From an uncultured Planctomycetota bacterium (GTDB lineage: Bacteria > Planctomycetota > Planctomycetia > Isosphaerales > Isosphaeraceae): a stretch of DNA of 64,000 nt. This document shows positions 7,310-45,007 of this stretch, piece after piece. The stretch spans positions 192,001 to 256,000 of the forward strand of contig CAWGMQ010000005.1 in the NCBI GenBank assembly GCA_963823665.1, written 5' to 3'. The notes beneath the pieces were generated by a model. That model saw nothing but the letters and a program-made list of their open reading frames with translations. It was not told where the DNA came from and ran no database searches. Position 1 is the stretch's first letter. The number at the start of each line of letters is the position of its first letter. The position numbers and the translations under genes were made by a program.

Positions 7310-7811
7310 TTTTCCAGGCCAGTTCGCGCGCCTCATGCCGGACGGGTAACTCCGTGTCCGGAGCATGTTCGTAGGCGTATTCGTGGCTGCCGCCGCCTTT
7401 GGATTCCTCATATTCGTGCGCGATGCCAGAATCGATCCTGTCCCTCAAGCGAGCCTTTGTGTAGGCGTCTGATGCTTCCGGCCCGAGGCGTTTGAACAGA
7501 TCAGGGTTTAGTATCCCGCTGTCGAGATTGAGTCTCCCGTCTGGCGTGTTGCCGCCACCATTGGCCTCGTGAGGAATGAAGGCGGCGTGCCGGATACCGT
7601 GTTCTGGATCGCCCACTCCGATTTTCAGTGGGTCGATGCCGAGCTCCATCATCCGGCTCTCGACAAGGTAATTCAGAGGCTTGGCATACCGCTGGGCGAA
7701 ATCCCTGGCGTGCGCCGCCGGATCGTGCCACATCGGCCGCTGGGACGGTGGCGTGCCGATCATGCCGGGCTTGCGGCGGAACAACTCAGCGATGCGGCGG
7801 AACGGGTTCAT
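7278..7811 (-). CDS. Hypothetical protein, 177 aa, with HExxE-x7-H putative metal-binding motif
   Basis: Protein-like composition; IAHEYEESKGGGSHEYA; its 3' end overlaps the convergent gene by 32 nt; the 3' half is conserved in a second copy at 9292-9513. Confidence 0.7.
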   Translation of the reverse strand: MNPFRRIAELFRRKPGMIGTPPSQRPMWHDPAAHARDFAQRYAKPLNYLVESRMMELGIDPLKIGVGDPEHGIRHAAFIPHEANGGGNTPDGRLNLDSGILNPDLFKRLGPEASDAYTKARLRDRIDSGIAHEYEESKGGGSHEYAYEHAPDTELPVRHEARELAWKIRDGERQRRL

Positions 7812-7932
7812 GCCGCCAGCCTATCGCATCAGAGATCGTCGCGCAACCAGGCAGACGTGCGGGGCACTCACGCTACTCCAGTGCGTCTTGGCCGACGGGC
7901 CCCTGGGTAGAAGACTTTGAATTTGACCTGGC

Positions 7933-8319
7933 CAGAACGTCTTCATCCCGCTCTTTCCCCGCGGCGCCGAGCCGCGCGGAGGACATCTCAAGGTCGTGCT
8001 CAAATCCAGCAAAGTGAGGAACGAAGAAGGCGTGCGATCCCTCCGCGCCCAGAACTCGATCACTGGCGTGATCGTCAACGACATCGAAACCATCGGCTTC
8101 CAGCAGAAGGCCGAATTATCAAGTCTATACCCGTTCGCCGACATTGACTCGGCGCTGCTGCTGGCGCACGACTACCGCTTTCCAAACACATCATTGCTCG
8201 CCCTGTACGCCGCCGGCTCGGCCGCACTCGTGCTAGTCGGCCTCGCCTCGGCAGTGGGAAGCTTCATGTTGGCACTCAAGCCCAAGCCGCGACAATTCCC
8301 GTTCTTGAGTAGAAGCTGA
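7933..8319 (+). pseudogene. Second, 5'-truncated copy of the membrane-protein C-terminus (homologous to 5884-6270)
   Basis: Near-identical DNA from CAGAAC-TCTTCATCCCGCTCTTTCCCC to the stop AGAAGCTGA. Confidence 0.8.
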
Positions 8320-8455
8320 GAAGAACCGTCGAGATCGCACGCCAGCGATTTTGGCAGTGCGGTCCAGGAACCTTGTTCCCCGATCGGATGGACATCGAGG
8401 CGGTGGTCCGCTCCGCGCCTGGCATGTCGAAAGATTACCGAATGAGCAGCGGAAA

Positions 8456-8606
8456 ATTTCCCGCCGCGCAAGTTGCGCCAAGTCTCCACTCTTGAGAAGG
8501 GGGGGTCGGGGCCGGCTGCCGAAAAGTTGCAGTACAGCAAGCGCAGATTTCCCGCCGGCAATGTTGCGCCAAGCTTCCCCCCTTAACAAGGGGGGGCCAG
8601 GGGGGG
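8456..8606. repeat. Two ~55-bp direct repeats (91-bp period), each ending in a CCCCCCTT-N3-AAGGGGGG REP-like hairpin
   Basis: ATTTCCCGCCG-GCAA-GTTGCGCCAAG at 8456 and 8547, followed by a degenerate hairpin (first copy) and a perfect hairpin at 8577-8595. Confidence 0.7.
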
Positions 8607-8831
8607 TCCGTCCCGGCGATCGCCATCACAAAACCGTCGCGCAACACAAAACGCCGAGTTGTCCACCTCGAAATTCGCCAATACGGCCCGCTTTTCATCA
8701 GCCCAGGGCCAGGGGGGTGCATTCCGGCGGCCGTCCAAGAAGAGTCGCTCGACCGCACCACACCGCGGGTCGGCAGACGTTCCACGGAATCCGGCTTTCA
8801 GGTAAAATGCCCATCATCAAGGAGGGTCGCC

Positions 8832-9323
8832 ATGCCCGAGACGTTCGCCCTGTCCGAATCGGCCGTCGCCGTGCTCCGGTTTCGCGTCAAAGGCTACCAG
8901 ATGACGGTTACCGACCGCTCGCTAGCGGCGTTCCGGGAGTTGGCCGCGGCCGGAATCATGGAGCCGGTACCGGGCGCGAATGGCAACCCCGAAGCCGATT
9001 ACCGCTTCACGGAGAACGGTTGGGCCCGGCGGCAGGAACTGCTCAGCGAGGCGGAAGAAGAGTTCGAGCGGGAGCGGTTCGAGCCGCCCGACGCGAGCAA
9101 TCTCTCGGAGGCGGCCAGGGAGCTGCTGCGCCGCCGGCTGGCTGGTGATCGAGAGGTGACGGAGGCCAATCGGCCACTCTATCGCGAGCTGGTGGCGGCG
9201 CGGATCATGTATCCGGTCTCGACTTGGGTCGGCGGCCCGGAGTCGGTGTTCCGATTCACCCGCGCGGGCTGGGAGCATCGGAAGGAATGGGTCAAAGTCT
9301 GCGCCGACGCTCTCCATCCGTGA
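8832..9323 (+). CDS. Hypothetical tandem winged-helix-like protein, copy 2 (163 aa)
   Basis: Same length, RBS and upstream region as 6818..7309; highly similar protein. Confidence 0.8.
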   Translation: MPETFALSESAVAVLRFRVKGYQMTVTDRSLAAFRELAAAGIMEPVPGANGNPEADYRFTENGWARRQELLSEAEEEFERERFEPPDASNLSEAARELLRRRLAGDREVTEANRPLYRELVAARIMYPVSTWVGGPESVFRFTRAGWEHRKEWVKVCADALHP

Positions 9324-9513
9324 TCTTCCAGGCCAGTTCGCGCGCCTCACGTCGGATGGGTAACTCCGTGTCCGGAGCATGTTCGTAGGCGTATTCGTGG
9401 CTGCCGCCGCCTTTGGCTTCCTCATATTCGTGCGCGATGCCAGAATCGATCCTATCCCGCAAGCGAGCGTTTGTGTAGGCGTCGGATGCTTCCCGGCCGA
9501 GTCGTTTGAACAG
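9292..9513 (-). pseudogene. 5'-truncated copy of the HExxE protein
   Basis: Encodes LFKRLGREASDAYTNARLRDRIDSGIAHEYEEAKGGGSHEYA...; homology to copy 1 stops abruptly at ~9513. Confidence 0.75.
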
Positions 9514-9595
9514 AAGATTGGAAGAACCTCGGAAGGGCTGCGTTTGAAGTTAGGCCCCACGGCCTCTGTGAACGTGATTCTATCGAAACGAGGCG

Positions 9596-9778
9596 ATGAT
9601 GGCGGCTTGGAGCTTGTCCGAGATTGAATGCGATGCGTTGGATCAATTGCGGTTCGGCGCATCGAGCACGGCGGTGTTTCGCAACGCCACGATCATCCTG
9701 ATGACTGCAACTGGTCCCTCGAAGCCCTCGTTTGCTGCAAGTCGTGGAAGGTGGCAGAACTGCGATTCCGCTCAGTGA
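9596..9778 (+). mobile_element. Probable IS630-family transposase N-terminal remnant
   Basis: MAAWSLSEIECDALDQLRFGASSTAVFRNATIILMTATGPSK resembles the N-terminal HTH region of IS630 transposases; no DDE domain; sits next to the breakpoint truncating the HExxE copy. Confidence 0.45.
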
Positions 9779-9895
9779 ACTGGCTCCCCTCCCTCGTCCG
9801 GATCATCATCGGCCATTTCCTCGGCGAGGCTCCGTTGCGCGGAGTGCCGCACTGTCAGGACGTGAACCGTGTCGTCCCGGATCATAAACAGTCAT
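9772..9895 (-). pseudogene. RelE/ParE-family toxin remnant (start codon fused out of frame to the C-terminal strand)
   Basis: ATGA overlap with the antitoxin stop, then in another frame LFMIRDDTVHVLTVRHSAQRSL, a typical RelE/ParE C-terminus. Confidence 0.7.
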
Positions 9896-10188
9896 CGACG
9901 GCCCTTGGCCCGGCGGAGATCCTTTTCAAGTGCGTCGAACGCGTCATCCATCGGTGTCCCCTCGCCGCGATCGACCGAGGCGATGCCCTCTTTCACGGCC
10001 TGGATGGTCTGTAGCCGCTCGGCAAGATCGAAAAGCCTCTGGTAGGAGGCCGCGTCCTGGACGACCAGTTCGGCCTTCCCGTTAATCGTCAGCACGACCG
10101 GGTTCCCAGTTTCCTTCAACTGGCGGAGGAATTCCGGCGTATTCCGCTTGAAGTCCGTAAGGGGATGGATGTCCTGGCTAAGATTCAT
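9892..10188 (-). CDS. Phd/YefM-family antitoxin
   Basis: DIHPLTDFKRNTPEFLRQLKETGNPVVLTINGKAELVVQDAASYQRL; GGAGGG RBS before ATG 10188. Confidence 0.9.
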   Translation of the reverse strand: MNLSQDIHPLTDFKRNTPEFLRQLKETGNPVVLTINGKAELVVQDAASYQRLFDLAERLQTIQAVKEGIASVDRGEGTPMDDAFDALEKDLRRAKGRR

Positions 10189-10203
10189 TTGGCCCTCCGC
10201 TGA

Positions 10204-10234
10204 TAACATCGATAAAGCATCGAATTCGATGTTA
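10204..10234. promoter_or_regulatory. Palindromic operator-like site upstream of the antitoxin
   Basis: TAACATCGA-N13-TCGATGTTA (10204-10234) plus a perfect 14-bp palindrome CATCGAATTCGATG (10218-10231); type II TA operons are usually autorepressed at such sites. Confidence 0.55.
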
Positions 10235-10304
10235 CTAGATCGAGGCGACCCTGGCAAGCAGAAACGTGACGGGGAGAACGCGAGCCAGCGTTTGATTGGG
10301 TTGA

Positions 10305-10453
10305 ACTACCGCTTTCCAAACACAACACGGCTCGCCCTGTACGCCGCCGGCTCGGCCGCACTCGTGCTAGTCGGCCTCGCCTCGGCAGTGGGAAGCTTCA
10401 TGTTCACACTCAAGCCCAAGCCGCGACAATTCCAGTTCCTGAGTAGAAGCTAG
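10305..10453 (+). pseudogene. Third copy of the membrane-protein 3' end
   Basis: ACTACCGCTTTCCAAACAC...AGTAGAAGC matches 6122-6270 and 8171-8319. Confidence 0.8.
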
Positions 10454-10489: not shown

Positions 10490-11137
10490 TCATTCACCGG
10501 CTTCGCCCGATTCAGACTTTTCGAGCGCTTCCCTAATTCGCCGGCGAACACGCTCGATCCTCTTGCGTAACGCTTCAGGGTTGATGCCTCGACGGACGGC
10601 CAGTTCCTGCCAACTTACCCCGTCCGCGCGGCCCTTGATGATTTCCAACTCTGATGGCGAAGCACACGCCTCGATTATGGCAACCTCTTCACGGACCGCC
10701 GCGATTTCACTCGGACTCGAGCCCACTTCAGCGAGGTTTGCCAGCATTGAGCCCCCGCCAGGCGCCGCTCGCCGTGCGTCCCGCTTCGCTGCTTTTACGC
10801 GCCGGATCGCATCATGGAGCCGGTCGCGGCCGACCTTATTCAGATAGGCTTCCAACGCCTCCCATTTTGCAAACTCGACGCGATTCGCTCGGATATCGGC
10901 GATCACGCGAGCGAAGACCGACTGAACCAGGTCCTGGCTGTCAATCTGGCTCTGCAGCAGTCGAATAACGCGGGTCACTCGCAACACGCGCCGCAGTCGC
11001 GGTTCGTAATGATCGACGAAGGTGCGCACCGCATCTTCATCCCCCGCGCGAATTGCGGCTACTACGTCACCCAACGGCGACCCCGGATTCAGCAAAGATT
11101 CCGCCATCGGTTTCCTGGCAAGTGTTTCACTGGCCAT
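10490..11137 (-). CDS. ECF sigma factor (planctomycete, kinase-associated type)
   Basis: R.GDEDA...F...YEP.LRR; IDSQDLVQSVF (sigma2); SSPSEIA; G.SWQELA...G....ALRKR..R.RR (sigma4). Confidence 0.85.
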   Translation of the reverse strand: MASETLARKPMAESLLNPGSPLGDVVAAIRAGDEDAVRTFVDHYEPRLRRVLRVTRVIRLLQSQIDSQDLVQSVFARVIADIRANRVEFAKWEALEAYLNKVGRDRLHDAIRRVKAAKRDARRAAPGGGSMLANLAEVGSSPSEIAAVREEVAIIEACASPSELEIIKGRADGVSWQELAVRRGINPEALRKRIERVRRRIREALEKSESGEAGE

Positions 11138-11258
11138 CGACTTTCAATTATAATCGCGTCCGCTCCCGGTGCGCTTTGCGTTCTAACCTATATCCCCGCG
11201 ACGTCCGCAGTGGGATGGCCGCGAAACGGCCTCGAATCGGCTTTCGGGAGGACCTGTT

Positions 11259-12398
11259 GTGTTGAATCGTGCGAAAACCCGTGTTGGAGCAACCCTCATC
11301 GGGTCGCTCGCGCTCCTGGCCACCCTGGGGTTCCCATCCACGTCATTCGCGCGCGACCCGCTGCGCTGCGAGATGAAAAGCGTTTCCGAAAAACTGCGAG
11401 ACTACTTCGCCGGCCGGCGTGTAAAAGAGCTAGCGGTAGGCGATGTCACCAACGCCGATCCTACGACACCCAGTACTTCCGGGCCAGGCATTCGCCAACT
11501 GCTCATCGAAGAGCTTGGCCGAGCCGAACTCAAGGTGAAGCTGCGGGCTGACGTAGGCCTGGCGGTCACGTACCGCGCCAGAAAGATACCCTTGAGGAAT
11601 AACCGGCGAGCCGAGCAGATCGTTGTCGAGATGCGCTTCACGGCCATGTTCAACGCTGACAACTCGCAGGAAGACATCCTCTCCTATCGCGTCGAAAACG
11701 AGGAAGCCAACCGCCACATCCTCGGCTTGACGGTCCCCCCTCCGACGAAGGGCACGAACCGCGAAGAACAAACGGTGCTGGCGTTTGCGAAACCCAAAGC
11801 GAACCTGGACGGAAGCGCCGTTCTGGCAGGCCAAAACGCACCGTTCGGACTGGAGATCCTCGTTGATGATAAGCCCATTCTGCCCAAGGATGAAGATGGC
11901 TTCGGGGTTGTGACTCTGCACCGAGATCAGATGTACGCCATCCGCCTGATCAACCGCTCTCCACTCGATATGGCCATACGCGTCAGTGTCGATGGTTTCA
12001 ACATCTTCGCATTCAGCGAGCTGCGGCAGAACGATGGTCCTTACAAGGGCGCTCCGCTTTACGACATGGTGCTCGTTCCGGCGAAGGGCAGCCTCGTCAT
12101 CCCGGGGTGGCATCGTACCAATAAGACGTCGGACAAATTCAAGATCACGGAATACGCCAAGACCCCCGCGGCGAAGATGAACAAGAACACGGATATCGGC
12201 ACGATCACCGCCACGTTCTGTGCGGCATGGGAGAAAACACCGCCTGACGACGAGCCGCCGGGCGCGCGTGCCCCGGGCGACGACGGCACCGGCTTTGGCG
12301 AGCCTACGACGGCGAACTACGAACCCGTAAAACGGACCATCGGCGCCGTTCGCGCTTCGGTCGCAGTACGCTACAAGGTGCCACCACCATCCCAATGA
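11259..12398 (+). CDS. Exported hypothetical protein
   Basis: Signal-peptide-like N-terminus (…LALLATLGFPSTSFA); beta-rich C-terminal region (YAIRLIN, VSVDG.N.F, IPGW, IGTITATF); first gene of a tight operon. Confidence 0.75.
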   Translation: MLNRAKTRVGATLIGSLALLATLGFPSTSFARDPLRCEMKSVSEKLRDYFAGRRVKELAVGDVTNADPTTPSTSGPGIRQLLIEELGRAELKVKLRADVGLAVTYRARKIPLRNNRRAEQIVVEMRFTAMFNADNSQEDILSYRVENEEANRHILGLTVPPPTKGTNREEQTVLAFAKPKANLDGSAVLAGQNAPFGLEILVDDKPILPKDEDGFGVVTLHRDQMYAIRLINRSPLDMAIRVSVDGFNIFAFSELRQNDGPYKGAPLYDMVLVPAKGSLVIPGWHRTNKTSDKFKITEYAKTPAAKMNKNTDIGTITATFCAAWEKTPPDDEPPGARAPGDDGTGFGEPTTANYEPVKRTIGAVRASVAVRYKVPPPSQ

Positions 12399-12417
12399 CC
12401 GGGAGGCCGAAACCGCG

Positions 12418-14655
12418 ATGGACGACCTGGCTCTGCTGGCACGCCGCGCCGGCGAACCCGCCGCCGAATGGGGCCTTCGCCTGCTCGACGGCCTGACAAG
12501 ACGTCATCAGCGGAAAGGCGGCGCTCGCGTCGAGGCCTTCCTGGGCGGGATAGCCGGCCTGGACCAGGAACGCGATGTCGTCCTCGACCTCGTCGTCGCA
12601 GAATGGACGCTCCGACGCCAGTCGGGCGGTCCGATAGAGCTGGCCGAGTACGTGCGGCGTTTTCCGACCTGGGAGGAAGAGTTGCGAATGCTCTGGGAAG
12701 TCGACCAGCTTACGCCGATTCCGGCCATGGAGCCGTACTCGACCGAGGAATACGGGACAAGTGTCCCGGCGTGGTACGTCGGCGCCGAGTCGTTACCGGC
12801 GACGTTTGGCGCTTACCGCCTTTTGCAAGAGCTCGGCGGCGGCGGAATGGCACGCGTCTTCCTGGCCGAGCCCCTGCCAGCCGGCAAACCGGTTGCGCTC
12901 AAAGTTCCCAAGCTCCCACTGGAGCAAGATTCGAAATCAGTCCGCGATCGCGACGCTCGCAAGGAGCGCTTCCTGCGCGAAGCCAGGGCGCTCCGGAAGC
13001 TGGATCACCCCAATCTCTGCCGAGCGCTTGAAGTCGGCGAGTGTGCAGGTCTGCCCTATTTCACCATGCCCTACTACCCGCGGGGCTCGGTGCTCGAAGA
13101 ATTGAAATCGAGCGGGGTCTTCGCGCAAAGCCACGCGGCGCGCCTGGTCGCCGAGGTCGCTCGCGCCATGCAGCACGCGCACGACCTGGGAATGCTCCAT
13201 CGCGACCTCAAGCCTTCAAACCTGCTGCGCGACGAAGACGGCCAGATTGTCGTTTCCGATTTTGGCCTCGTGATCGAAACAGAGTCCGACGAATCGCGGC
13301 TGACGAGCACGGGTGTCTCACCCGGCACTCCGCGCTATTTTTCGCCCGAGCAAGTTGCCGGCGAGCCGAAGCTCACCCCGGCGAGCGACATCTACAGCCT
13401 CGGCGTGATCTTCTACGAGCTGCTGACCGGCCGTCCCCCCTTCGATTGGTCCAACGTCCACGTGCTGTTGCGTTCAATCCGTGAGACCGAGCCGTGGCAA
13501 TTGAGTGTGATCCGCGCCGACATCGCGCCGTCATTAGCCGCGGCCTGCCACAAGGCGTTGGCCAAGAAGCCCGAAGACCGGCACGCCACCATGCGGGAGC
13601 TCGCCGAGGATCTCGAACGATCCGTCGAGAGTTCCTGGACCCCTTCCCAGGAAACCACACTTCCGCCGACACCCGAAAAACCCGTTACTCGGCCGCGACT
13701 GAAGTGGAAAGCCTCGCATTGGATCGCGGCGCTTTGCCTCGGACTTTTCGCGGCAATCGCCGGCGCGGCATTTTTCACGCACCTCGACCCCGCGACAAAT
13801 ACGTCATCAAGCACGGCAAAGACGGGCTCGCACTCGTCTCAATCGGGATCGCGCGCAATCGTTTCAAAGCGGGTTCCGATCAGGAGCCGCGGCTTGCTGC
13901 AACTCCTGCACGACGACCTCGAACGGCTCGAAGCCGTCGATCGTCCTCACCATCGCTACTTTTCACTCATGGCCGTGCACGACAACCCATACATCAGCGA
14001 TTCGGAATTCAGCCTCCACCTTGACGCGTTGCGCCGGGTGCTCAATCGCCTCAGCTCCGACAAGCTCGACGTGAAGGTGCATCCGGTTGACTCTTCCGGT
14101 TGTCTGCTTCGCGTTGACCTTCGAGACCTTGACTGGTCCGAATCCTATGAATGGCATGACATCCTGAAGGTCGAGCCCTACGGAGTTCGCTACGATACCA
14201 AAGCGACAACCGACGAATCGATGCGCAAGCTGGCGCGAGAGATCCGCGCGCTCATCGCACCCAGCGATGAATCGCCTGTCGTGCGAGCCGATTGGTTCAT
14301 CGATGCCGTCGCGCGGGGGCCGCTATTCGATCACTTGCTGCGGAGCGACAACAAGAACCGACAGATCGTGCCATTCGACTTGAGCGCGGCGGACGATTCG
14401 GTTCGTCGCGTCGTCGAGCTCTACCGCCAGAGCGTCATCGACACCCGCGTCGCGGCCGCGGAGCTCGGCCTCGGAACCGTGAAAGATCTGGAAACACGTT
14501 GGCCGGCAAATAAACCCGACCTCCGTAGTGCGCTCGAACGATCGTTACCCCGTAGCCAGTGGGAAGGGAAGAATACGTACGCACTCTTCTCGGATTATGT
14601 CCGCGCCCTCGGGCTGGGCGCATTGCGCGCAATGCAACCCTTCGATCAGCGGTAA
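12418..14655 (+). CDS. Membrane Ser/Thr protein kinase (Hanks type) with an uncharacterised C-terminal ectodomain
   Basis: LGGGGMARVF, VALK, HRDLKPSN, SDFG, GTPRYFSPE, SDIYSLG; TM WIAALCLGLFAAIAGAAFF; planctomycete-type EY..RFP N-terminus. Confidence 0.92.
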   Translation: MDDLALLARRAGEPAAEWGLRLLDGLTRRHQRKGGARVEAFLGGIAGLDQERDVVLDLVVAEWTLRRQSGGPIELAEYVRRFPTWEEELRMLWEVDQLTPIPAMEPYSTEEYGTSVPAWYVGAESLPATFGAYRLLQELGGGGMARVFLAEPLPAGKPVALKVPKLPLEQDSKSVRDRDARKERFLREARALRKLDHPNLCRALEVGECAGLPYFTMPYYPRGSVLEELKSSGVFAQSHAARLVAEVARAMQHAHDLGMLHRDLKPSNLLRDEDGQIVVSDFGLVIETESDESRLTSTGVSPGTPRYFSPEQVAGEPKLTPASDIYSLGVIFYELLTGRPPFDWSNVHVLLRSIRETEPWQLSVIRADIAPSLAAACHKALAKKPEDRHATMRELAEDLERSVESSWTPSQETTLPPTPEKPVTRPRLKWKASHWIAALCLGLFAAIAGAAFFTHLDPATNTSSSTAKTGSHSSQSGSRAIVSKRVPIRSRGLLQLLHDDLERLEAVDRPHHRYFSLMAVHDNPYISDSEFSLHLDALRRVLNRLSSDKLDVKVHPVDSSGCLLRVDLRDLDWSESYEWHDILKVEPYGVRYDTKATTDESMRKLAREIRALIAPSDESPVVRADWFIDAVARGPLFDHLLRSDNKNRQIVPFDLSAADDSVRRVVELYRQSVIDTRVAAAELGLGTVKDLETRWPANKPDLRSALERSLPRSQWEGKNTYALFSDYVRALGLGALRAMQPFDQR

Positions 14656-14708
14656 GCCGTTTGCAGCTCCACATGACGAAATCCGCTAACTCTTCCGGGA
14701 ACCCGGCA

Positions 14709-17700
14709 ATGCCGAAAAGGGCAAAAAAATCTGTTTCGCAGTTCATTCTCATTGCACTAGTCACGACGATTCTGTCCATCCCTGGCGATCGTTCATTCGC
14801 CGGCGAGACGGGTCAAACGGAGCTGATTCTTCCACTTGGCCATAACAGGGATGTCACATCAGTAGCCCTAAGCATAAATTGTGATTGGGCACTCACCGGA
14901 TCGGACGACAGAACGGCGATTCTTTGGGATGTCGACGCAGGCAGACCCATTCAGCGCTTTATCGGTCATCGCGCCAGATTGAATTCTGTGGCGGTGGCCC
15001 GCGACGGCGCGGGGGTCCTCACCGCTTCAGCAGACGGCACTGCGATCTTATGGGACATCGCCTCCGCCAAACCGATCCTGACGTTCAAGGGCCACGACGG
15101 GTCGGTGAGCTCTGTGGTCCTGAGCAGGGATGGCAAACGCGTTCTCACTGGCTCTAACGACCGCACCGCACGTCTTTGGGACGTCGCGAGTGGCCAGACT
15201 ATTCAGACTTTCAAAGGACATGCTGATTTTGTGACGTCCGTCGCGCTAAGCGTCGATGGTAAGCGCGTCCTCACCGGGTCATGGGACCACTCGGCGATCC
15301 TGTGGGATGCGGAGACCGCTAAGCCCATTCAGATCTTCAAGGGGCATACCAGATTGGTCGAGTCCGTGGCTCTGAGCGGCGATAGCAAGCGCGTCCTCAC
15401 TGGGTCATCTGACCACACGGCGATCCTCTGGGATGCGGAAACGGGGCAATCGGTCCATGTGTTCAAAGATGGTGATAGCAGTTGTATGTCCGTGGCATTC
15501 GTAGGGAACGGAAGCCACGTCCTGACGGCATTCTACGACGCGCTTCTCTGGGATGCTGATACGGGCAAACTCGTTCAACGAATGGCCAATCCCCAAACCG
15601 ACGCGGCGACTTCTATAGCCGTCAGCACAAACGGCAAAAGCGCTCTGATCGGTTACCGTAAGGGGTACGCAGTGCTGTGGCAAACCGAGTTTGCCCGACC
15701 CATTCAGGCCTTCAGGGGCCGCGCGAAGGTCGAGGCGCTTGCCGTAAGCATCGGAGGTAAGCGGATACTCACTGGATCGGACGAAATGACGGCCGTTCTC
15801 TGGGACGCGGGGTCGGCCAGCGCGAACCGCATTTTCACTGCGCACCACGACACAATCGACGCTGTCGCTTTAAGTCCGAGCGGCGAGCGCGCCCTCACCG
15901 GGGCTGGCTCAAGCGCGACACTTTGGGACGTTGAAACAGCGCACAACCTCCAAACCTTCAATGGGATTCCCTCGTTCGTCGTATTCGTGGCACTAAGCGC
16001 CGATGGCAGACGCGTACTGACAGGGTCGTGGAACGGGACTTCAATCCTCTGGGACGTTGCGACGGCCACGTCCATCCAAACCTTCAAGGGCCACTACGCA
16101 ACCAACGATTGTTTGGCACTGAGCGGCGACGGCACGCGAGTCCTTACCGCGCCGGACCCGTTTCGCGCGGCGCTCTGGTCCGTCGGGACCGCCAATCCAA
16201 CTCGCACCTTCGATCACGAGACCGCCGGGTATGTCCGCGCACTGGCGCTGAACGCCGACGGGACTCGCGTCCTCGTCGGCTACGGCCATGGCTTCCAGTC
16301 CCGAGAGGAAATCGCAGTTCTCTGGGACGCTGCGACCGGAAAGGACATCCAGACCTTTAAAGGACACACCGACGAGGTCCGATCTGTCGCGTTCAACGCA
16401 GATGGAAATCGAGTGTTGACGGGCTCCGAAGACCGGACCGCGATCGTCTGGGACAGCGCGAGCGGCAAACCCATACAGGTCTTCAGCGATCACAAGGCCA
16501 GCGTTAGCCATGTAGCGTTTGCCGATCGCGCTCCACTTGTAGTCACGACATCAGACGACGGCGCAACGCGTGTCTGGACCACTGGGCGCGAGCGAGCGCT
16601 CTTTTCCTTAACATCCGCGGGCGAGGAATGGCTGTTCTGGACGCCCGAGGGATATTACACGTGCTCTCCCAACGGCGAGAGCCTGATCGCGTGGAAGATG
16701 CCCGATAAGTCGCCCAGAGGCTACCAAATCGTCGGCCCCGAGCAGTTCCGCAAGAAGTTCTATCGTCCCGACTTGTTCCGCCACCTCCTCAAGGAGCTCG
16801 ATCTAAACCGCGCCCTCGCGCTCGCGGACCGTGAACGCGGCGGGGTTGTCGAGGCCGCGACCTCGATCGCCCATGCACTGCCGCCGAACGTCGGGATCAT
16901 CAAGCCCGATCGGGATGGCGAGGTCAGCACCGAGAAGCTGACGGTCGAGTCGCTCGCATTCAGTGTTGGCGATCAGCCGGTCAACCGAATGCGCCTGCTC
17001 GTCGACGGCCGGCCATATCAGGGAAACCTGGGCAGCTTCACCATACCCGAGCCCAAGCTGGGTGAAGTGCGCTGGAGCAAGGAGATCGAGCTCGAGCCGG
17101 GCGACCACACGATTCAGGTCATCGCCGAAAGCGTGAGCGAAGGACGATCGAGGGTCTTCCGCATTCGCCGCAAGGCGATCGTCGAAACTTTGCCACGACT
17201 TAGTGTCCTGGCCATTGGCGTGAGCGCCTATGAAAAGGAAGACCTCCGCAAAGACGTCTTCTATGCCTCGGCCGACGCGCAAGTTTGCTGACACGATCCA
17301 GCGGTCAAGCAAATCGCTCTACCGCGACATCCAGACAATCACTTTGGTTGACCAAGACGCCACCAAGCGGAAAATCCTCAAAGCACTCGACCAGCTTATC
17401 ACGCAGTCCACTCAGCGCGATGCCGTGATGATCTTCTTCGCCGGCCACGGCAAGCGCGACAATCAGGGTAATTTCTACTTCCTCCCCGCCGATACCGACC
17501 TGGACGAGCTCGCCTTTACCGGCCTTTCCGAGGGCGACTTCAAAGCCAAGGTCAAAGCCATCTCGGGCCGCGTGATCCTGCTCCTCGACGCCTGCCACTC
17601 GGGAGCCCTGATCGAAAACCCGGGCCGCGGCACCGATGGCCTGACCGACCGGCTCTACGTTGACCTGACCTCGAACGAATTTGGCCTGATCATGATGTGC

Positions 17701-17937
17701 TCCTCGCGCGGCCTCGAAAAATCGCTGGAAAGCCCCACCCTCAAGAGCGGCTTTTTCGCCGTCGCCGTCGTTGAGGGCCTGGAAGGCAAGGCCCGCAAGT
17801 CGGAGGATGGTGCGGTGTATTTCAAGGACCTCGACGCGTATGTCACCGAACGCGTGAAGGACTTGAGCGAGGGAAAGCAACATCCGCTGACCTCGCAGGC
17901 GACCACAATCATCAATATTCCGCTGACGAAACCGTGA
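14709..17937 (+). CDS. Exported WD40-repeat / Ig-like / caspase-family (peptidase C14) protein A; frameshift at ~17280
   Basis: Signal-peptide-like N-terminus; about 14 WD40 repeats; WTPEGYY linker; C14 dyad motifs FFAGHG and LDACHSG. The ORFs 14559..17291 and 17230..17937 join at GAC GCG C AAG TTT (ADA/KFAD). Confidence 0.85.
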
Positions 17938-18001
17938 GGGAGTCGCGCTGACCGTCTGCATGTAAACTGGCTCGATCACGCCATTATTTCGGGGGTCATC
18001 C

Positions 18002-21000
18002 GTGGACGGCGCCTACCTTGTTCCCATCCGCCGCCTCTGCCTGCTCTCATTCAGCATGGGGCTGTTCTGTTTCGTTGCGAGCGCCAGCGCCCAGATGGCT
18101 GGACCGGAGACTCATACTACCGCTCGGGCATACCAGTTCGGTTGTATCCGTGGCCCTGAGCGGCGACGGCAAGCGCGTCCTCACCGGGTCTTCGGACAAC
18201 ACCGCGATCCTCTGGGACACGGAGACGGCCAGGCCCATCCAGACCTTCAAGGGGCATACCAGTTCGGTTTCGTCCGTGGCCCTGAGCGGCGACGGTAAGC
18301 GCGTCCTCACCGGGTCTGATGACAACTCGGCGATCCTGTGGGATACGGAGACGGGCAAGCCCATCCAGACATTCAAAGGGCATACCGATCGGGTTAATTC
18401 CGTGGGCCTGAGCAGCGACGGCAAGCGCGTATTCACTGGGTCTCATGACAACACGGCGACCCTGTGGGACACGGAGACGGGCAAGCCCATCCAGACCTTC
18501 AAGGGGCATACCGGTTCGGTTATTTCCGTGGCCCTGAGCGGTGACGGCGAGCGCGCCCTCACCGGGTCTAGGGACAAAACCGCGATTCTGTGGGACACGG
18601 AGACGGCCAAGCCCATCCAAACCTTCAAGGGGCATACCGATTTGCTTCCTTCCGTGGCGCTGAGCGGCGACGGCAAGCGCGTCTTCACCGGGTCTTATGA
18701 CGAGACCGCGATCGTGTGGGAAACGGAGACGGGCAAGCCCATCCAGACCTTCAAGGGGCATACCGGTTCGGTTTATTCCCTGGCGCTGAGCGGCGACGGC
18801 AAGCGCGCCCTCACTGGTTCTGCGGACAAAACCGCGATTCTGTGGGAAACGGAGACGGGCAAGCCCATCCGGACCTTCAAGGGGCATACCAGGTCGGTTT
18901 CGTCCGTGGCCCTGAGCGGCGACGGCAAGCGCGTACTCACCGGGTTTTACGACAACACTGCGATTCTGTGGGACACGGAGACGGGCAAGCCCATCCAGAC
19001 CTTCAAGGGGCATACCGAGCCGGTTCGGTCCGTGGCCCTGAGCGGCGACGGCAAGCGCATCCTCACCGGGTCTCACGACAACACCGCGATCCTGTGGGAA
19101 ACGGCGACGGCCAAGCCCATCCAACGCTTCAAGGGGCAGTTCAGTTGGGTTACTTCCGTGGCCCTGAGCGGCGACGGCAAGCGCGCCCTCACTGGTTCTG
19201 CGGACAAAACCGCGATTCTGTGGGACACGGCGACGGCCAAGCCCATCCAAACCTTCAAGGGGCATACCAATTTGGTTAGTTCCGCGGCGCTGAGCGGCGA
19301 CGGCAAACGCGTTCTCACCGGGTCTACGGACAACACCGCGATTCTGTGGGAAACGGAGACGGCCAAGCCCATCCAACGCTTCAAGGGGCATACCGAATCG
19401 GTCAGTTCCGTGGCCCTGAGCATCGATGGCAAGCGCGTCCTCACCGGGTGTTTCAACAACACCGCGATCCTGTGGGATACGGAGACGGCCAAGCCCATCC
19501 GGACCTTCCAAGGGCATCGCAGTTTGGTTCATTCCGTCGCCCTGAGCGATGACGGCAAACGCGTGCTGACCGGGTCTTTGGACAAAACCGCGATTCTGTG
19601 GGATACGGAGACGGCCAAGCCCATCAAGACCTTCAAGGGGCATACCGATGAGGTTTATTCCGTAGCCCTGAGCGGCGACGGTAAGCGCGCCCTCACCGGG
19701 TCTGGAGACAACACCGCGATTCTGTGGGATACGGACACGGCCAAGCCCATCCAGCGCTTCAAGGGGCACGTCGGAGCGATCACCGCCGCGGCATTTTCTC
19801 CCCGTGGCGAATATATCATCACGTCCTCCGCTGACGGGACGGTCCGCGTTTGGAAGCCCGGACGCGAAGATGCCTTGTTCTGCTTCCTTGCATCCGGATC
19901 GGAATGGCTCTTCTGGACGCCCGAGGGGTATTACACATGCTCCCCCAACGGCGAGAGCCTGATTGCCTGGAAGGTAGCCGATCAGTCCCCCAGAGGCTAC
20001 CAAATCGTCGGCCCCGAGCAGTTCCGCAAGAAGTTCTATCGCCCGGATATGTTCCGACACCTCCTGAACGAGCTTGATCTCGATCGCGCCCTGGCCCTTG
20101 CCGACAGAGAAAGCGGCCACGTTGTAGAAGCCCCCACCACGATCGACAAATTACCGGCGCCAGTGGTGCTCATCATCGACCCCAAGAGGGATGCCGAGAC
20201 GGACAGAGAGAGGTTGACCATCGAAGCGGTCGCCGTCAGCAACGGCGAGCTTCCGGTGACTCGTATGCGGATATTGATTAACGGCCGCACTTACAACGGA
20301 AACCTGTCGATCTTCGAGGTGCCCGACCCCCGCCCCGGCGCCGTCCGCCGGAGCTGGGATGTTGAGCTCGAGCCAGGCGACTTCGACGTGCAGGTGCTTG
20401 CCGACACCAGCGCGAATTTCGGCAAGTCAGAGATCCGCAAGATTCGCCGCAAGAGCCTTGCTGAATCATTGCCGCGCCTGCGCGTCCTGGTCGTCGGCGT
20501 CAGCGCCTACGAAAAGGAATCGCTGCGCAAGAACGTCGAATACGCGGCCGCCGACGCAATCAGGTTCGGAAATGCAATGAAGCTATCACGCGGGCCGCTA
20601 TATCGGGATTTCAAGGCGAAGTGTCTGGTCGACAAGGATGCCACTCGGAAGAAAATCCTTGAAGCTCTGTTGGAGATAAAGAAGGAGACCACGATGACTG
20701 ACACGACGATGGTGTTCTTCGCAGGCCACGGCGATCGGGACGACCAGGGCAACTTCTACTTCCTTCCCGTGGAAACCGACGAGATCGTTTCCAGCGGAGT
20801 TTCCGAAGACGATCTCAAGAGCCGCCTCCGGGCTCTGCCGGGCCGCGTATTCCTCATACTCGATGCCTGCCATTCTGGAGCGGTCGCAGCAAGCCGCGGA
20901 CGCGACGTCGGCGGTCTGACCGACAGGCTTTACCGCGATGTGACGTCGAACGAGCACGGCCTGATCATGTTTTGCTCTTCGATGGGGATGGAGCAGTCGC

Positions 21001-21209
21001 TCCAGAGTCCCCAGCACAAGAGCGGCATGTTCACACTGGCACTCACCGAGGGCCTGGAGGGAAAGGCGTCAAAGTCGGATGAGGGTGTCGTTTACCTGGA
21101 TGCCCTCGAGCGGTACATTGCCGAGCGCGTTCGGCAACTAAGTGAAGGTAAACAGCACCCACTGATGTTTCACCCTACAATCCGAGACATTCCACTGACG
21201 AAGCCGTAA
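18002..21209 (+). CDS. Exported WD40-repeat / Ig-like / caspase-family (peptidase C14) protein B; frameshift at ~18110
   Basis: Signal peptide (…FCFVASASA) in the 18002 frame joins LILPLGH after one extra A (the paralog reads ELILPLGH); 14 WD40 repeats; FFAGHG and LDACHSG intact. Confidence 0.87.
18126..19860 (+). repeat. Tandem array of 126-bp (42-aa) WD40 units: 13 near-identical plus 1 divergent
   Basis: Unit GHTxxVxSVALSGDGKRxLTGSxDxTAILWDTETxKPIQTFK recurs every 126 nt. Confidence 0.95.
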
Positions 21210-21277
21210 AGTTGTGTTCGAGTGGCGCACCGGTTAGCACTGCCGCACCAATCAGAGCGACTGCTGGCGAATACGTC

Positions 21278-22246
21278 ATGAATTTGAGAATGATCCGATC
21301 AACCGCCACGAAATGGTTGGAGCGAAAGCTCTGGCGGCATGTTCTCTTCCTCGGCGCTGCGGGCATCCTCTTGGCCGGCGTCAGCGTCTTCAAGGGCTGG
21401 ATGCACCGGCAGGTGGGTTTCGATGCGGAAGGCAAGCCCTTCGACGTCGCGGAGAAGCGCCTGGAGCCGCAATCGCCGGCGCCCTCCCAGCCCAGGGGGC
21501 GGCGACCAGTTTCCGAGGGGGCTGCTCTCCGCCTGATCTTGGACGACCTCGAGCGCCGGGACGAAGAACGGCGACCACATCTTCGTTACCTCACCCTCGC
21601 GCACCGCAACAACGACCCGACGTGTGCCGACAGCGAGCTCGATGCCGATCGCGCTGCGGTGCGCGAGATGGTCGTGTTCATTTCGCGCGGCCATTCGACA
21701 CGCTCGGATTTCATCGATCCCGAGCAGCTCGTCTTTCGTCTCGACCTCGAAGACCTCGATTGGAGCGGCGAGACGGACTGGCACCTGGTTACGTCGGTCT
21801 ATCGATACGGGCTGACCGGTACCGGAAACGACACACTGTCGGAGCTTCGGAAAAAGGTGCAGGAGCTCACCCAGGATCCGATCCCGGCGCTGCGGGCCGA
21901 CTGGTTCGTCGTCGCCCTCACGCGCGGGCCACTGGCCGGCCCGAGCGGGGTCGTTCGCATCCCAACAAATGAGTTACCCGAGTCGGTCCGCATGCTTTCT
22001 CAGCGCTACGCCAGTGAAACCGTCGACCTCGCCACCTGCGCTTCCGAGGAAGGCCTCACCGATCCACAAGTATTGGCGGATCTGATCCAGCGAACGCCGA
22101 ATCTTCAGCAAGAATTCGGAATCGCCCCGCTGCTCCGCGGCGAGCGAATCCGCCGCGAGTGGTGGGAATCCGACCGCAACCTCTTTTCCCCGTACCAGGA
22201 AGTCGCGCGACTTCTGAAGATCGGCAAGCCGGTTCGCGTCCAATAG
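21278..22246 (+). CDS. Membrane-anchored/exported protein homologous to the kinase ectodomain
   Basis: N-terminal TM; LILDDLER..RPHLRYLTL, FRLDLEDLDW, Y.YG, LRADWFV...RGPL parallel the kinase C-terminus (LLHDDLER..RPHHRYFSL, LRVDLRDLDW, PYG, VRADWFI...RGPL). Confidence 0.8.
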   Translation: MNLRMIRSTATKWLERKLWRHVLFLGAAGILLAGVSVFKGWMHRQVGFDAEGKPFDVAEKRLEPQSPAPSQPRGRRPVSEGAALRLILDDLERRDEERRPHLRYLTLAHRNNDPTCADSELDADRAAVREMVVFISRGHSTRSDFIDPEQLVFRLDLEDLDWSGETDWHLVTSVYRYGLTGTGNDTLSELRKKVQELTQDPIPALRADWFVVALTRGPLAGPSGVVRIPTNELPESVRMLSQRYASETVDLATCASEEGLTDPQVLADLIQRTPNLQQEFGIAPLLRGERIRREWWESDRNLFSPYQEVARLLKIGKPVRVQ

Positions 22247-22291: not shown

Positions 22292-23395
22292 TCACGGATC
22301 AGCGAGACCCGCGTGCTCCCACTTCAGCTTGACCTTGAGTGAATTCAGCGTCCTGTTGTAGTTGAGCAACCGGTCATGTTGCAGACGGCCGACGACGATG
22401 CCGGGGGCAATGCCGACCTCCGCCGCAAAAGCACACAGCACATCTTCCCGGTCGTAATCTAACGTTAAGAGCCGCTTGAAATGAACATCAGGGATCAATG
22501 TTTTTGAGGCGAACTCGTTTGCCTCCCGCTCACTGTCATTTCCGTCCCCTTTGAAGTCGTCCAGGAATGTCTTCTTCTTCCCATGCAGGACGATATGACC
22601 CAGTTCGTGAAAGAAGCTAAACCATAGATGATCGTTGGTACAGAAGCGAAGACTGAGCTGAATCACGGCCTTATCACCCAGCCAAAACGCCGCGCCGGAA
22701 ACACAGCTCCCTTGCAGATGGGGAACAAAGACGACGGCGACGCCGAGTGAAGCGCACAGGCTCATCAGCCTTGGCACGAACTCCTCGGGCGGCAGCAACG
22801 AGAATGCGCGAATCTCTTTCAGAGCGACCTTCAATCCTTTGCCATTGAATGAGTCGGTTTCAACCTCAGCCGCTTCCAGTTCACCCTTTCTCAACCATGC
22901 TGCCAGCGCATACGGGCTGGCTTGTTTAATGAGCGACTTCCGGAACGCCGGTGCCTGAACCGTCGTTTTATTGAGCTGTGAGAAGGCGGCGATGCCGAAG
23001 TAGCTTAGTAGCCGGCGAGCCTGTTCCGAGGGGTTCGCTGCCTTCTCCAGCCAGCCAAGTTTGATCATCTCACGAAGAGGGAACTTCTTCAGGGCTTCGG
23101 CCTCCTCCCGAAGTCTCCCGTTGCCGCTGATCCGCTTCTGGGTCAGTTGGTAATTCCTCTCCAGATTCAGCCAAAAGATCGCCGGCAATCCTAGCACCAA
23201 TTCCAGCTCGAGCGAGGTCTCCTCGGTAATTGCGCGCTTACCATGGAGAATCTCGTTGACCTTGTTGGCAGGACGCTTCATCCGCTGTGCCAGTTCCGCC
23301 TGCGTCATTCCTTTCGCGGCAAGCATCTCAAGGATCGTAGCGCCGGGCGGGTTCGCCACGTCCGGCATGTACTCGCGCGGCTTGATTCTAGCCAT
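22292..23395 (-). CDS. HigA-type XRE HTH fused to ImmA/IrrE (M78) metallopeptidase
   Basis: PPGATILEML...MTQAELAQRM......NEILHGKRAIT...FWLNLE; FSFFHELGHIVLH; EREANEFA. Confidence 0.9.
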   Translation of the reverse strand: MARIKPREYMPDVANPPGATILEMLAAKGMTQAELAQRMKRPANKVNEILHGKRAITEETSLELELVLGLPAIFWLNLERNYQLTQKRISGNGRLREEAEALKKFPLREMIKLGWLEKAANPSEQARRLLSYFGIAAFSQLNKTTVQAPAFRKSLIKQASPYALAAWLRKGELEAAEVETDSFNGKGLKVALKEIRAFSLLPPEEFVPRLMSLCASLGVAVVFVPHLQGSCVSGAAFWLGDKAVIQLSLRFCTNDHLWFSFFHELGHIVLHGKKKTFLDDFKGDGNDSEREANEFASKTLIPDVHFKRLLTLDYDREDVLCAFAAEVGIAPGIVVGRLQHDRLLNYNRTLNSLKVKLKWEHAGLADP

Positions 23396-23782
23396 CGTGA
23401 TTGTCGGCTCTCCTCGCATATCTTTTGAAGCTTGGCGTTCGCGTACCCGATCTCCATCGGAGTGGTAATCCTTTTCTTTTACCCCAAGAGTCAAGATTTT
23501 TTTCTTTACCCTTGAGGTCATACGAAATCTCGCCATTATAGAGTCTAGTCCGATGGTCAGATCTCTTCAAGCCGTGGCTCCAGCATTCTCGATAGGGCCG
23601 CTCTACGTGTGAGCCTGGGCGACACGGCGCCGCAGACAACCATGCAGCATCTGACACGGGCGGATTCTCGCGGCAGCTACTGAGACGCCCGAGGCGATGA
23701 GCTGGATGGCAGGCTTGCCAAGGCGAGCGCAATGGTGGAACAATACGACAGAGCACCATAAACGGAATGAACGAGGAGCGAA

Positions 23783-24013
23783 ATGAACGGACTTCAGGGC
23801 ACGACTAAGAACGGCCAGATTATTCTCGACGCCCCGGCCACGCTGCCCGAAGGCACCCGAGTGGAGGTTCTGCCGATCCGGGTGGCTCGGCCCACGCTGG
23901 GCATGCGCGAGGAAGATTGGCCGACGACACAGGAGGGGATCGCGGCCTCGTTGGCCCGGATGGACGAAGTCGAGCCGGGATGTCCGCGAAAGTCGATTCG
24001 GAGGAACGCATGA
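23783..24013 (+). CDS. Small antitoxin-like protein (AF2212/DUF104-like N-terminus), probably truncated
   Basis: GAGGAG RBS; GTTKNGQIILDAPATLPEGTRVEV beta motif. Confidence 0.5.
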   Translation: MNGLQGTTKNGQIILDAPATLPEGTRVEVLPIRVARPTLGMREEDWPTTQEGIAASLARMDEVEPGCPRKSIRRNA

Positions 24014-24336
24014 TCTCATCGAAAAGTTACGTGGAGCAGGATTCCCAGGGCGCGCTGCGGGTGGGCCTGCCCGGCATTTCTCTCGACTCCGTCGTCATCG
24101 CCTTCCAGCAGGGACACTCCCCGGAAACAATTCAGCAGCTCTATCCTGCTCTGAGCTTGGAAGAGGTGTATGGAGCGATCGCCTTCTACCTCGCCAATCG
24201 GGATAAGGTCGATCAATACCTGGAGCGGCAGGAACAGCGCTGGGATCAAGTCCGCGAGCGCGCTGCGCAGAATCCAAGCGAGGTGGTGCAACGGCTTCGT
24301 GCGCTCAGCAAGGTCCACGGCCCGGCGGCAACATGA
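24010..24336 (+). CDS. DUF433-domain antitoxin-like protein
   Basis: RV....ISLDSVVIAFQQGHSPETIQQLYPALSLEEVYGAIAFYLAN; GAGGA RBS. Confidence 0.88.
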   Translation: MISSKSYVEQDSQGALRVGLPGISLDSVVIAFQQGHSPETIQQLYPALSLEEVYGAIAFYLANRDKVDQYLERQEQRWDQVRERAAQNPSEVVQRLRALSKVHGPAAT

Positions 24337-44603: not shown

Positions 44604-45007
44604 GAGGTGGGCCCCGAGGTTATGGAATCAAGGAAGTTTCGGGTAGGCGGCTCTCGTCAATTAATTCTACCGCATGACGCCCTGGCAAGCACGTCTGGCG
44701 TTTGTTCCGCGACGGCAAGGCCGTCATCTCCGCCGAGCACGAGTCGCGGGTTCCATTCCTTCCGGAACCGCAGGGCGAGGGCCCAGGCCGCGCCCTCCTC
44801 GCGGCCATCACTCAATTCCAGCTCGCCGGGTAAGGACCTCATCGGTTTTCTCCAGAGGACGCCAGTGGATCCATGTCCATCGGAAACCGATTTCGCGCAC
44901 CGCTGGGTTGGCTTACACGATCTTGTTATGAATGTGATCGGAAAAGCAACGAGATAGAGGGCCGCCAGAGACTCGGACTGGAAAGCGAGATCGCCGGGGT
45001 GAGAGCG

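What the first reader, a model, noticed from the sequence alone, without database searches (positions are those of the whole stretch)
10490..22246. Candidate recognition-and-signalling system: ECF sigma / exported protein / receptor kinase / two exported WD40-caspases / free ectodomain
Seen: five closely spaced co-directional genes (gaps under ~70 nt), divergent from an ECF sigma. Both caspase-like domains keep the His (FAGHG) and Cys (DACHSG) dyad and sit behind signal peptides and 14-blade WD40 arrays. The ECF has DSQD where most ECFs have DAED. Established: some ECFs are activated by phosphorylation at a Ser/Thr in this region by a neighbouring kinase, and WD40 sensor + caspase architectures occur in innate-immunity-like systems. 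Inference: periplasmic or surface WD40 arrays bind a variable ligand and activate the proteases, which cleave the kinase ectodomain or its free paralog, leading to kinase-to-ECF signalling. This would be an extracytoplasmic counterpart of NLR/caspase signalling. The parts are known families, but I do not know this assembly as a described system.
Basis: partly seen in the sequence, partly recalled or inferred. Interest (0 to 1): 0.8.

Follow-up and report, generated by a model that had tools for sequence, protein, structure and literature searches.

The report
Exported caspase system of planctomycetes
Many planctomycete bacteria carry a gene set for caspase-like proteases that appear to be sent outside the inner membrane together with two proteins of unknown function, and in this genome the set is joined to a membrane kinase and a sigma factor, so it may detect foreign molecules at the cell surface and switch on genes.

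Summary
The locus is real and its order is conserved: divergent ECF, exported protein X, membrane Ser/Thr kinase, signal-peptide WD40-Ig-caspases, kinase-less paralog. Both caspase genes are frameshifted in the assembly, probably by sequencing error (intact homologues, other split genes nearby; no read bridges the sites). The kinase 'ectodomain' is a heme-less, internally deleted form of an unnamed exported di-heme cytochrome c family (RAD). The conserved core is RAD + X + exported caspase: X in 56 of 301 class genomes; a caspase beside 24 of 25 full-length RAD/X loci, a kinase beside 7, this ECF type beside none. Kinase plus this ECF go with the short RAD (7 of 7, 6 of 7). The 'free ectodomain' keeps a membrane anchor and is optional. 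The second WD40 array varies at top-face binding positions, as fungal NLR sensors do. The ECF's DSQD serine is not the EcfP phosphosite and is common in this genome's kinase-linked ECFs. Cleavage of the ectodomain is untested. Ten literature searches found no description of the core.

The parts
10490..11137 (-). ECF sigma factor of the kinase-linked planctomycete type; motif DSQDLVQS, DSQD at 10931-10942; no anti-sigma gene beside it
   Evidence: Pfam Sigma70_ECF and Sigma70_r2; TIGR02937 over cut-off; alignment with orthologues
11138..11258 (.). Divergent intergenic region; a block of about 50 nt (about 11146-11195) is conserved in the same-genus relative; TATAAT-like site ending at 11154
   Evidence: not conserved in three more distant loci
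11259..12398 (+). Protein X: signal peptide, N-terminal alpha/beta domain weakly like LpoB/LptE, C-terminal Ig-like domain; no Pfam, NCBIfam, PADLOC or PHROGs match; core component
12418..14655 (+). Hanks-type receptor kinase: N-terminal domain shared with other ECF-linked kinases of this genome, kinase domain, one membrane helix (13720-13776), heme-less short RAD ectodomain from 13864
14673..17937 (+). Signal peptide, 14 diverged WD40 repeats, Ig-like linker, C14 caspase domain (His motif 17437-17451, Cys motif 17587-17604); frameshift at about 17278 in the assembly
18002..21209 (+). Signal peptide (other frame, frameshift at about 18110), 14 near-identical WD40 repeats with variable top-face positions, Ig-like linker, C14 caspase domain (His motif 20718-20732, Cys motif 20862-20879)
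21278..22246 (+). Kinase-less short RAD protein with a conserved N-terminal membrane helix (21341-21391); optional component

Best explanation
A periplasmic recognition system whose fixed core is X + RAD + exported caspase(s), here wired to gene expression. SHOWN (sequence and genome context): the three core parts travel together; the caspases carry exchangeable binding modules (WD40 here; FGE/C-type-lectin fold, TPR, DUF4384, PDZ elsewhere); in this lineage RAD has lost both heme sites and is the outer part of a membrane kinase, next to a kinase-type ECF. INFERRED: the two WD40 double propellers bind foreign or damaged proteins in the periplasm, which clusters and activates the caspase domains; X and RAD form the platform on which this is read; the change (a cut in or near RAD, or clustering of RAD) activates the kinase, which phosphorylates the ECF; the anchored kinase-less RAD tunes the kinase as co-receptor or decoy. 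About 0.55 for this direction of signalling overall; about 0.25 for the specific step that the caspases cut the ectodomain.
For: 57 of 60 top-scoring full-length RAD matches have X within 12 kb. A caspase lies within 10 kb of X in 24 of 25 full-RAD loci. All 7 short-RAD loci have a kinase and 6 of 7 this ECF type, against 7 of 25 and 0 of 25 full-RAD loci. RAD is fused behind a kinase in 16 of the 150 best family members, and behind FHA + membrane helix + a caspase-like domain in two. 6 of this genome's 8 caspase matches lie in its two X/RAD loci. Heme motifs plus signal peptides in full RAD (140 of 150 with two or more CxxCH, 96 of 150 with a crude signal peptide) fit export. WD array 2: positions 6, 8, 24 have pN 0.65 against 0.105 elsewhere, overall pS 0.21; 2 of 11,480 triples are as high; these match R1-2, R1, D-1 of PMC3419727. 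Removing the periplasmic domain of PknS switches on its autophosphorylation (PMC13147305), so a cut could activate such a kinase.
Against: No binding, cleavage, phosphorylation or expression data. Most core loci have neither kinase nor this ECF, so the core's usual output is something else. Some linked caspase domains lack the GHG motif (L014, L060, L016, L073) and the two fused to RAD read GQS, so the fold may act without cutting. The ECF keeps both aspartates of DxxD and may not need phosphorylation (PMC8999054 says such ECFs may work differently from EcfP). ECF/kinase pairs of this type occur at 4 other places in the genome, so the pair could be loosely attached. WD array 1 is not internally conserved, and only 4 of 121 proteins examined met my criteria for near-identical repeats. 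The 7 short-RAD loci are kin (one side of a branch in the X tree), not independent events.
Confidence: 0.55

Rival explanations
1. Clustering without cutting: the WD40-caspases and X act as periplasmic co-receptors that bring RAD domains together and dimerise the kinase, as TagQ/TagR are proposed to do for PpkA; the protease activity is aimed at the bound ligand.
For: Dyad-less caspase domains beside or fused to RAD; FGE domains are common on the linked caspases (8 of 25 full-RAD loci) and TagR's FGE domain is proposed to bind PpkA (PMC13713981); RAD sits on both kinase and FHA membrane proteins.
Against: The dyad is kept in both window genes and 67 of 79 homologues; no TssC/VipB match in this genome, 92% complete. 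This rival overlaps with the best explanation and differs only in the relay step.
Confidence: 0.2
2. Reverse order: the kinase senses through RAD/X, the ECF switches on the divergent operon, and the caspases are the output (periplasmic or surface proteases that destroy recognised foreign proteins or remodel the envelope).
For: The ECF is divergent from the operon across a 121-nt region with a block conserved in the genus; variable binding faces suit target choice as well as sensing; several caspase copies per locus (2 here, 3 in G001, 4 in the paralogous locus).
Against: No shared promoter motif in the more distant loci; it does not explain why caspases stay with RAD and X where no regulator is present.
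Confidence: 0.2
3. Redox module: full-length RAD is a periplasmic di-heme enzyme or electron carrier, X its partner, and the caspases mature it or are kept reduced by it; the window holds a derived form that lost the redox role and kept only the protein contacts.
For: Two CxxCH motifs and many invariant polar residues in the middle subdomain that short RAD lacks.
Against: It does not explain the variable WD40/FGE/TPR modules or the kinase and FHA fusions; the short form is conserved without hemes (none of 28 has CxxCH).
Confidence: 0.12
4. The locus is decaying: the frameshifts are real and both caspases are dead in this strain.
For: Both genes are broken as assembled; no read or contig bridges either site; gene 1's site is also broken in all three caspase genes of G001.
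Against: The G001 breaks differ in size (two of 2 nt, one of 1 nt) at a GC-dinucleotide run; the 15 closest homologues span the site in one frame; G001's kinase and two unrelated genes in the window are split as well; no in-frame stops in the parts.
Confidence: 0.08

Closest known systems
Kinase-activated ECF sigma factors: ECF43 (EcfP/PknT, EcfK/PknS) and planctomycete groups ECF59-62, ECF217 (PMC7826278, PMC8999054, PMC13147305)
   Same: ECF without anti-sigma beside a single-pass Hanks kinase with a periplasmic domain; Ser/Thr in the sigma-2.2 motif.
   Different: DxxD is kept and the Ser is at position 2 and 8, not at the EcfP position; the kinase is not at +1; the ectodomain is neither TPR nor WD40 but an unnamed cytochrome-derived domain; the group descriptions read (ECF56-62 in full, ECF217 passage) mention no caspases.
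EACC2-caspase and other bacterial caspase conflict systems (Kaur et al. 2021, PMC8195603; 2020, PMC7159879)
   Same: Caspase with variable sensory domains, sometimes an ECF gene nearby; FGS (FGE) domains as proposed invader sensors.
   Different: No NTPase, EAD or TRADD-N seen here; the caspases have signal peptides; NF047832 (EACC1-type caspase) scores 77-83 against a cut-off of 140; no passage on X or RAD found.
Fungal HNWD NLRs (het-d, het-e; PMC12222747) and the Apaf-1 apoptosome
   Same: Double WD40 propeller of near-identical repeats with variable top-face positions (same spacing as positions 10, 11, 12, 14, 30, 32); WD40 + caspase + cytochrome c domain in the full-length loci echoes Apaf-1 (passage in PMC7159879).
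   Different: No NACHT or NB-ARC domain, exported rather than cytoplasmic, caspase fused directly; no evidence that the propellers bind the cytochrome.
TagQ/TagR/PpkA/Fha1 of Pseudomonas H1-T6SS (PMC13713981)
   Same: Periplasmic accessory proteins upstream of a membrane Ser/Thr kinase; FGE and FHA domains in the wider family.
   Different: No T6SS sheath gene found in this genome; no TagQ-type lipoprotein; proteases and cytochromes are not part of the Tag module.
Prokaryotic metacaspases with N-terminal membrane helix or signal peptide (Asplund-Samuelsson et al. 2012, PMC3501461)
   Same: WD40-caspase and caspase-FGE architectures and probable export are already catalogued.
   Different: No conserved partner genes like X or RAD appear in the passages read.

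Membership tests
ECF43 (EcfP/EcfK type) | Loss of acidic DxxD residues with Thr at motif position 3 | tested here: not met
   DSQD keeps both Asp, Gln at position 3 (definitions in PMC8999054, PMC13147305)
Kinase-linked planctomycete ECFs (ECF59-62, ECF217) | Planctomycete ECF, no anti-sigma, membrane kinase in the neighbourhood | tested here: met
   Kinase two genes away in 6 of 7 short-RAD loci; none with the ASF-like gene
Kinase-linked planctomycete ECFs (ECF59-62, ECF217) | Scores against the group HMMs | not testable with these tools
   Group HMMs not held; TIGR02984 scores 42 against cut-off 184
Kinase-linked planctomycete ECFs (ECF59-62, ECF217) | Direct phosphorylation by the neighbouring kinase | not testable with these tools
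   needs an assay
C14 caspase-like proteases (metacaspase/orthocaspase) | C14 domain with His-Cys dyad | tested here: met
   PF00656 over cut-off, 46.8 and 63.4 bits; FAGHG and DACHSG
NLR/STAND-caspase systems | STAND NTPase between sensor and effector | tested here: not met
   No NTPase family among the matches shown for the locus proteins; the genome's nSTAND1-WD40 gene lies elsewhere
EACC1/EACC2-caspase systems | EACC-type caspase and EACC domain | tested here: inconclusive
   NF047832 below cut-off; no EACC2 model seen in the libraries
HNWD-like diversifying WD40 sensor | Near-identical repeats with variable top-face sites | tested here: met
   Gene 2 only: 84% mean DNA identity, positions 24, 8, 5, 6 vary most; gene 1 repeats are diverged
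T6SS Tag/PpkA module | Linked type VI secretion system | tested here: not met
   PF05943 not found in G000, 92% complete
RAD di-heme cytochrome family (defined here) | RAD N- and C-terminal parts with RADWF motif | tested here: met
RAD di-heme cytochrome family (defined here) | PSCyt1 domain and second CxxCH subdomain | tested here: not met
   Both absent from the two window proteins; clean gap of about 235 residues in alignment A3

The most novel reading that the evidence does not exclude
Planctomycetes have a class-wide, undescribed extracytoplasmic innate-recognition pathway: diversifying exported sensor-caspases act on a cytochrome c-derived platform (RAD + X), a periplasmic WD40/caspase/cytochrome c assembly without any NTPase. 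In the lineage of this window the platform lost its hemes and became the outer domain of a receptor kinase, so that caspase cleavage outside the membrane triggers sigma-factor phosphorylation inside.
Probability: 0.3. Interest if true: 0.92.

Novelty: categorically new. Interest (0 to 1): 0.74.

Why it matters
Exported bacterial caspase-like proteases have been catalogued (PMC3501461), but the passages read give them no partners or substrates. This gives them a fixed genomic context, two candidate partners and, in this variant, a measurable output (kinase and ECF). A kinase-fused full-length RAD is on record in a cultured species (WP_015243877.1, Singulisphaera acidiphila), so the core can be tested. 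It also shows a di-heme cytochrome domain being turned into a heme-less receptor ectodomain. The novelty label applies to the X + RAD + caspase core; the kinase-ECF arm alone is a new member of a known kind, and the claim of no prior description rests on ten searches of an open-access library.

Tried and rejected
Reads: no RNA holder listed; contigs of 4 runs laid on the locus bridge neither frameshift; one exact 195-nt piece begins at 17278 and is uninformative. Complex prediction of X with the kinase ectodomain was not available, so binding is open. The whole genome was too large to lay, so no genome-wide frameshift rate was computed. Fold searches: short RAD model (pLDDT 83) had no Foldseek match at E 0.001 or less, and VIA rows covered only the N-terminal helix, which shows neither a known nor a new fold; X matches are weak (best Z 5.5, rmsd 2.4, 100 residues, LpoB). 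ESM Atlas: X hit only unnamed Planctomycetota clusters; RAD hits to CTD7/Cap4 came with a low recognition score (1402) and were not followed. X's Ig domain as DUF4384: one profile comparison gave 0.3%. Programmed frameshift at the recurrent site: rejected because the breaks differ in size; a test for loss of GCGCGC in these assemblies was not clear-cut. T6SS link: not found. Shared ECF promoter motif: not found beyond the genus. PADLOC kinase hits (PD-T4-6, mad6) are generic kinase-domain matches. Earlier scan findings: 5 look-ups, nothing shown. The X tree is the quick tree; the careful search did not finish. Wiegand et al. 2020 was not held; Jogler 2012 and Iyer 2020 were not read.
Full report
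OBSERVATION. The ECF is on the minus strand; X, a single-pass Hanks kinase, two WD40-caspases and a kinase-less paralog of the ectodomain follow on the plus strand with gaps of 17-68 nt. X and the ectodomain match nothing in Pfam, NCBIfam, PADLOC or PHROGs. The window is G000:C5:192001-256000 of a 16.46-Mb, 12-contig assembly, 92% complete; related loci with titles are nearly all Planctomycetota (10 of 11).

FRAMESHIFTS. Gene 1 breaks at about 17278 and gene 2 at about 18110. Laid contigs bridge neither. I read them as assembly errors by inference: the 15 closest homologues cover 97-100% of the Ig-caspase region in one frame and 12 of them begin with a hydrophobic signal-like stretch (over all 79 examined, 47 by a crude hydropathy rule and 67 with both dyad motifs); two unrelated genes in the window, a PAS histidine kinase near 28320 and a DUF1587/DUF1595 protein near 43600, are split too. 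Against this, the gene 1 site is also broken in all three caspase genes of the same-genus genome G001, although by different amounts at a GC run.

SYNTENY OF THIS VARIANT. ECF<-, X, kinase-RAD, WD-caspase recurs in L008 (the same stretch as G001) and L009; L010 starts inside X and shows X, kinase-RAD, WD; L011, L012 and L078 have WD-caspase before the kinase. The kinase-less RAD was not found in G001 or G528 in a search at E 1e-30 (G001 is 84% complete, and its locus shows none). Its N-terminal hydrophobic helix and the residues after it are conserved in 25 sequences, which fits an uncleaved anchor.

WHAT THE ECTODOMAIN IS. The genome has a second X beside a longer ectodomain relative on contig C4. 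These long forms, here called RAD after their RADWF motif, consist of a signal peptide or kinase + helix, a PSCyt1 cytochrome c domain, and a middle subdomain with a second CxxCH. Both window proteins align to the N- and C-terminal parts with a clean gap of about 235 residues and lack both heme sites. Of the 150 best family representatives, 140 have two or more CxxCH, 16 carry a kinase, 96 a crude signal peptide; none of 28 short forms has CxxCH. The profile finds 2,237 clusters at E 1e-30 or less and only cytochrome c hits among solved structures.

THE CORE. X was found in 56 of 301 genomes of the class and in 6 of 251 drawn across the phylum, all six in this class. From the two class searches, 57 of 60 RAD matches of 520 bits or more (a threshold chosen after seeing the table) have X within 12 kb, and 72 of 93 X loci have a listed RAD within 12 kb; I entered 79 RAD rows, 154 rows were not displayed, and three split X hits were merged. 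Lower-scoring RAD relatives mostly end in other domains (WD40, FGE) and two loci checked had no X or caspase. Of 45 hand-picked loci, 4 had no tblastn hit to the window's X and were left out (among them the C4 paralog); duplicates and contigs under 3.4 kb had been dropped. Of the 41 left: 25 full-RAD loci (caspase 24, kinase 7, this ECF type 0, a canonical ECF with an anti-sigma-like gene 3); 7 short-RAD loci (kinase 7, this ECF 6, caspase 4); 9 without RAD (caspase 5). A fifth short-RAD locus has a divergent caspase with His and Cys; the other two contigs end inside the WD gene. The linked caspases carry WD40-Ig, FGE, TPR, DUF4384, 3-keto-disaccharide hydrolase, PDZ or pentapeptide domains. 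In a quick tree of 37 X proteins the four short-RAD X fall on one side of a branch (support 94; one has a very long branch), while kinase fusions to full RAD are scattered. So the variant probably arose once and these loci are not independent.

ECF. Orthologues read DSQD, DSQD, SSQD, DSED, DSED, DTNA, with S/T four places later, whereas ECFs of full-RAD loci are canonical. In EcfP the site is the second Thr of STTA, position 3, in a motif without acidic residues (PMC8999054, passages); EcfK has further linker sites (PMC13147305, passages). The window's Ser is therefore not the proven site. [DE]-S-x-D is in 6 of 11 other ECFs fetched from this genome, and four ECFs lie directly beside kinases that share the window kinase's N-terminal domain. 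The arm is a generic planctomycete module, like ECF59-62/217 (PMC7826278, passages and supplement part 15; the supplement was cut when stored).

SENSOR SIGNATURE. The 12 internal repeats of gene 2 are 84% identical in DNA; positions 24, 8, 5 and 6 carry 9, 8, 6 and 6 different residues. Positions 6, 8 and 24 match the top-face binding sites R1-2, R1 and D-1 (PMC3419727, passages): pN 0.65 against 0.105, overall pS 0.21, pS at those codons 0.40, uncorrected. I saw the variation before looking up the definition. L011 shows the same sites. The spacing equals that of the diversifying sites of fungal HET-D/E repeats (PMC12222747, passages). Gene 1 is diverged throughout.

STRUCTURE. X folds confidently (pLDDT 82) into an LpoB/LptE-like domain and an Ig-like domain, with weak scores only. 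Short RAD folds (pLDDT 83) without an informative match.

MECHANISM. Most likely, ligand binding by the propellers activates the caspases, the X/RAD platform registers this, the kinase is switched on and the ECF phosphorylated (0.55). Whether the relay is a cut (0.25) or clustering, and whether the caspases are input or output, is open. That exported heme proteins and kinase ectodomains lie in the periplasm is established knowledge (kinase topology in planctomycetes: PMC11032199, passages); basic-residue specificity of orthocaspases is from the abstract listing of PMC6426788.

LITERATURE. Ten searches found no account of the core. Read as passages: PMC8195603 (plus 12 of 13 supplements searched for PSCyt1, cytochrome and Singulisphaera; no hit for the first two), PMC7159879 (supplements not searched), PMC7826278, PMC8999054, PMC13147305, PMC11032199 (one supplement, no hit), PMC3501461, PMC3419727, PMC12222747, PMC13713981. 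Subscription papers on planctomycete ECFs (Jogler 2012, Wiegand 2020, Iyer 2020) and unseen supplements could mention these neighbourhoods.

VERDICT. Real and conserved. The kinase-ECF arm is of a known kind; the exported caspase + X + cytochrome-derived RAD core fits no described system I could test. Interest 0.74.

Noticed in passing
G000:C4:609194-623882 (L006, L007): Paralogous locus in the same genome: canonical ECF with an anti-sigma-like gene, a kinase, four caspase-FGE genes, X and a full di-heme RAD.
   Followed up: yes
window 5881-10451: A unit of about 2 kb is duplicated at 92-93% identity with a third partial copy ending just before the ECF; its proteins have no Pfam or PHROGs match.
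   Followed up: partly
window 9892-10257, 22292-23536, 23917-24336: Phd/YefM antitoxin, HTH + IrrE/M78 protein and DUF433 protein flank the locus, as in an island rich in toxin-antitoxin genes.
   Followed up: no
window 44873-64000: An ECF-like gene precedes a giant ORF of at least 5,674 codons running off the window, with PKD, RTX and FG-GAP repeats; ORF 45778-47313 may be its frameshifted start.
   Followed up: no
window about 28320 and about 43600: Frameshifts split a PAS histidine kinase and a PSCyt1/DUF1587/DUF1595 protein.
   Followed up: yes
L115:7898-15372 (G000:C10): Two caspases, apparently without signal peptides, beside an nSTAND1-WD40 gene: a conventional NLR-like locus.
   Followed up: partly
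L091, L092, P0253: A second RAD subfamily, widespread in the class and with C-terminal WD40, FGE or unknown domains, without X or caspase in the two loci checked.
   Followed up: partly
P0227, P0236, P0211: FHA + membrane helix fusions to RAD, two of them with a caspase-like domain lacking the catalytic His in between.
   Followed up: partly
L076:4511-13013 (G530): X beside caspase-pentapeptide and caspase-PDZ genes and a serpin.
   Followed up: no
P0104, P0109, P0113, P0115, P0117, P0121-P0123: WD40-caspase homologues that start with a CxxC zinc-ribbon-like segment instead of a signal peptide.
   Followed up: no
window 697-2325: YscJ/FliF-family gene.
   Followed up: no
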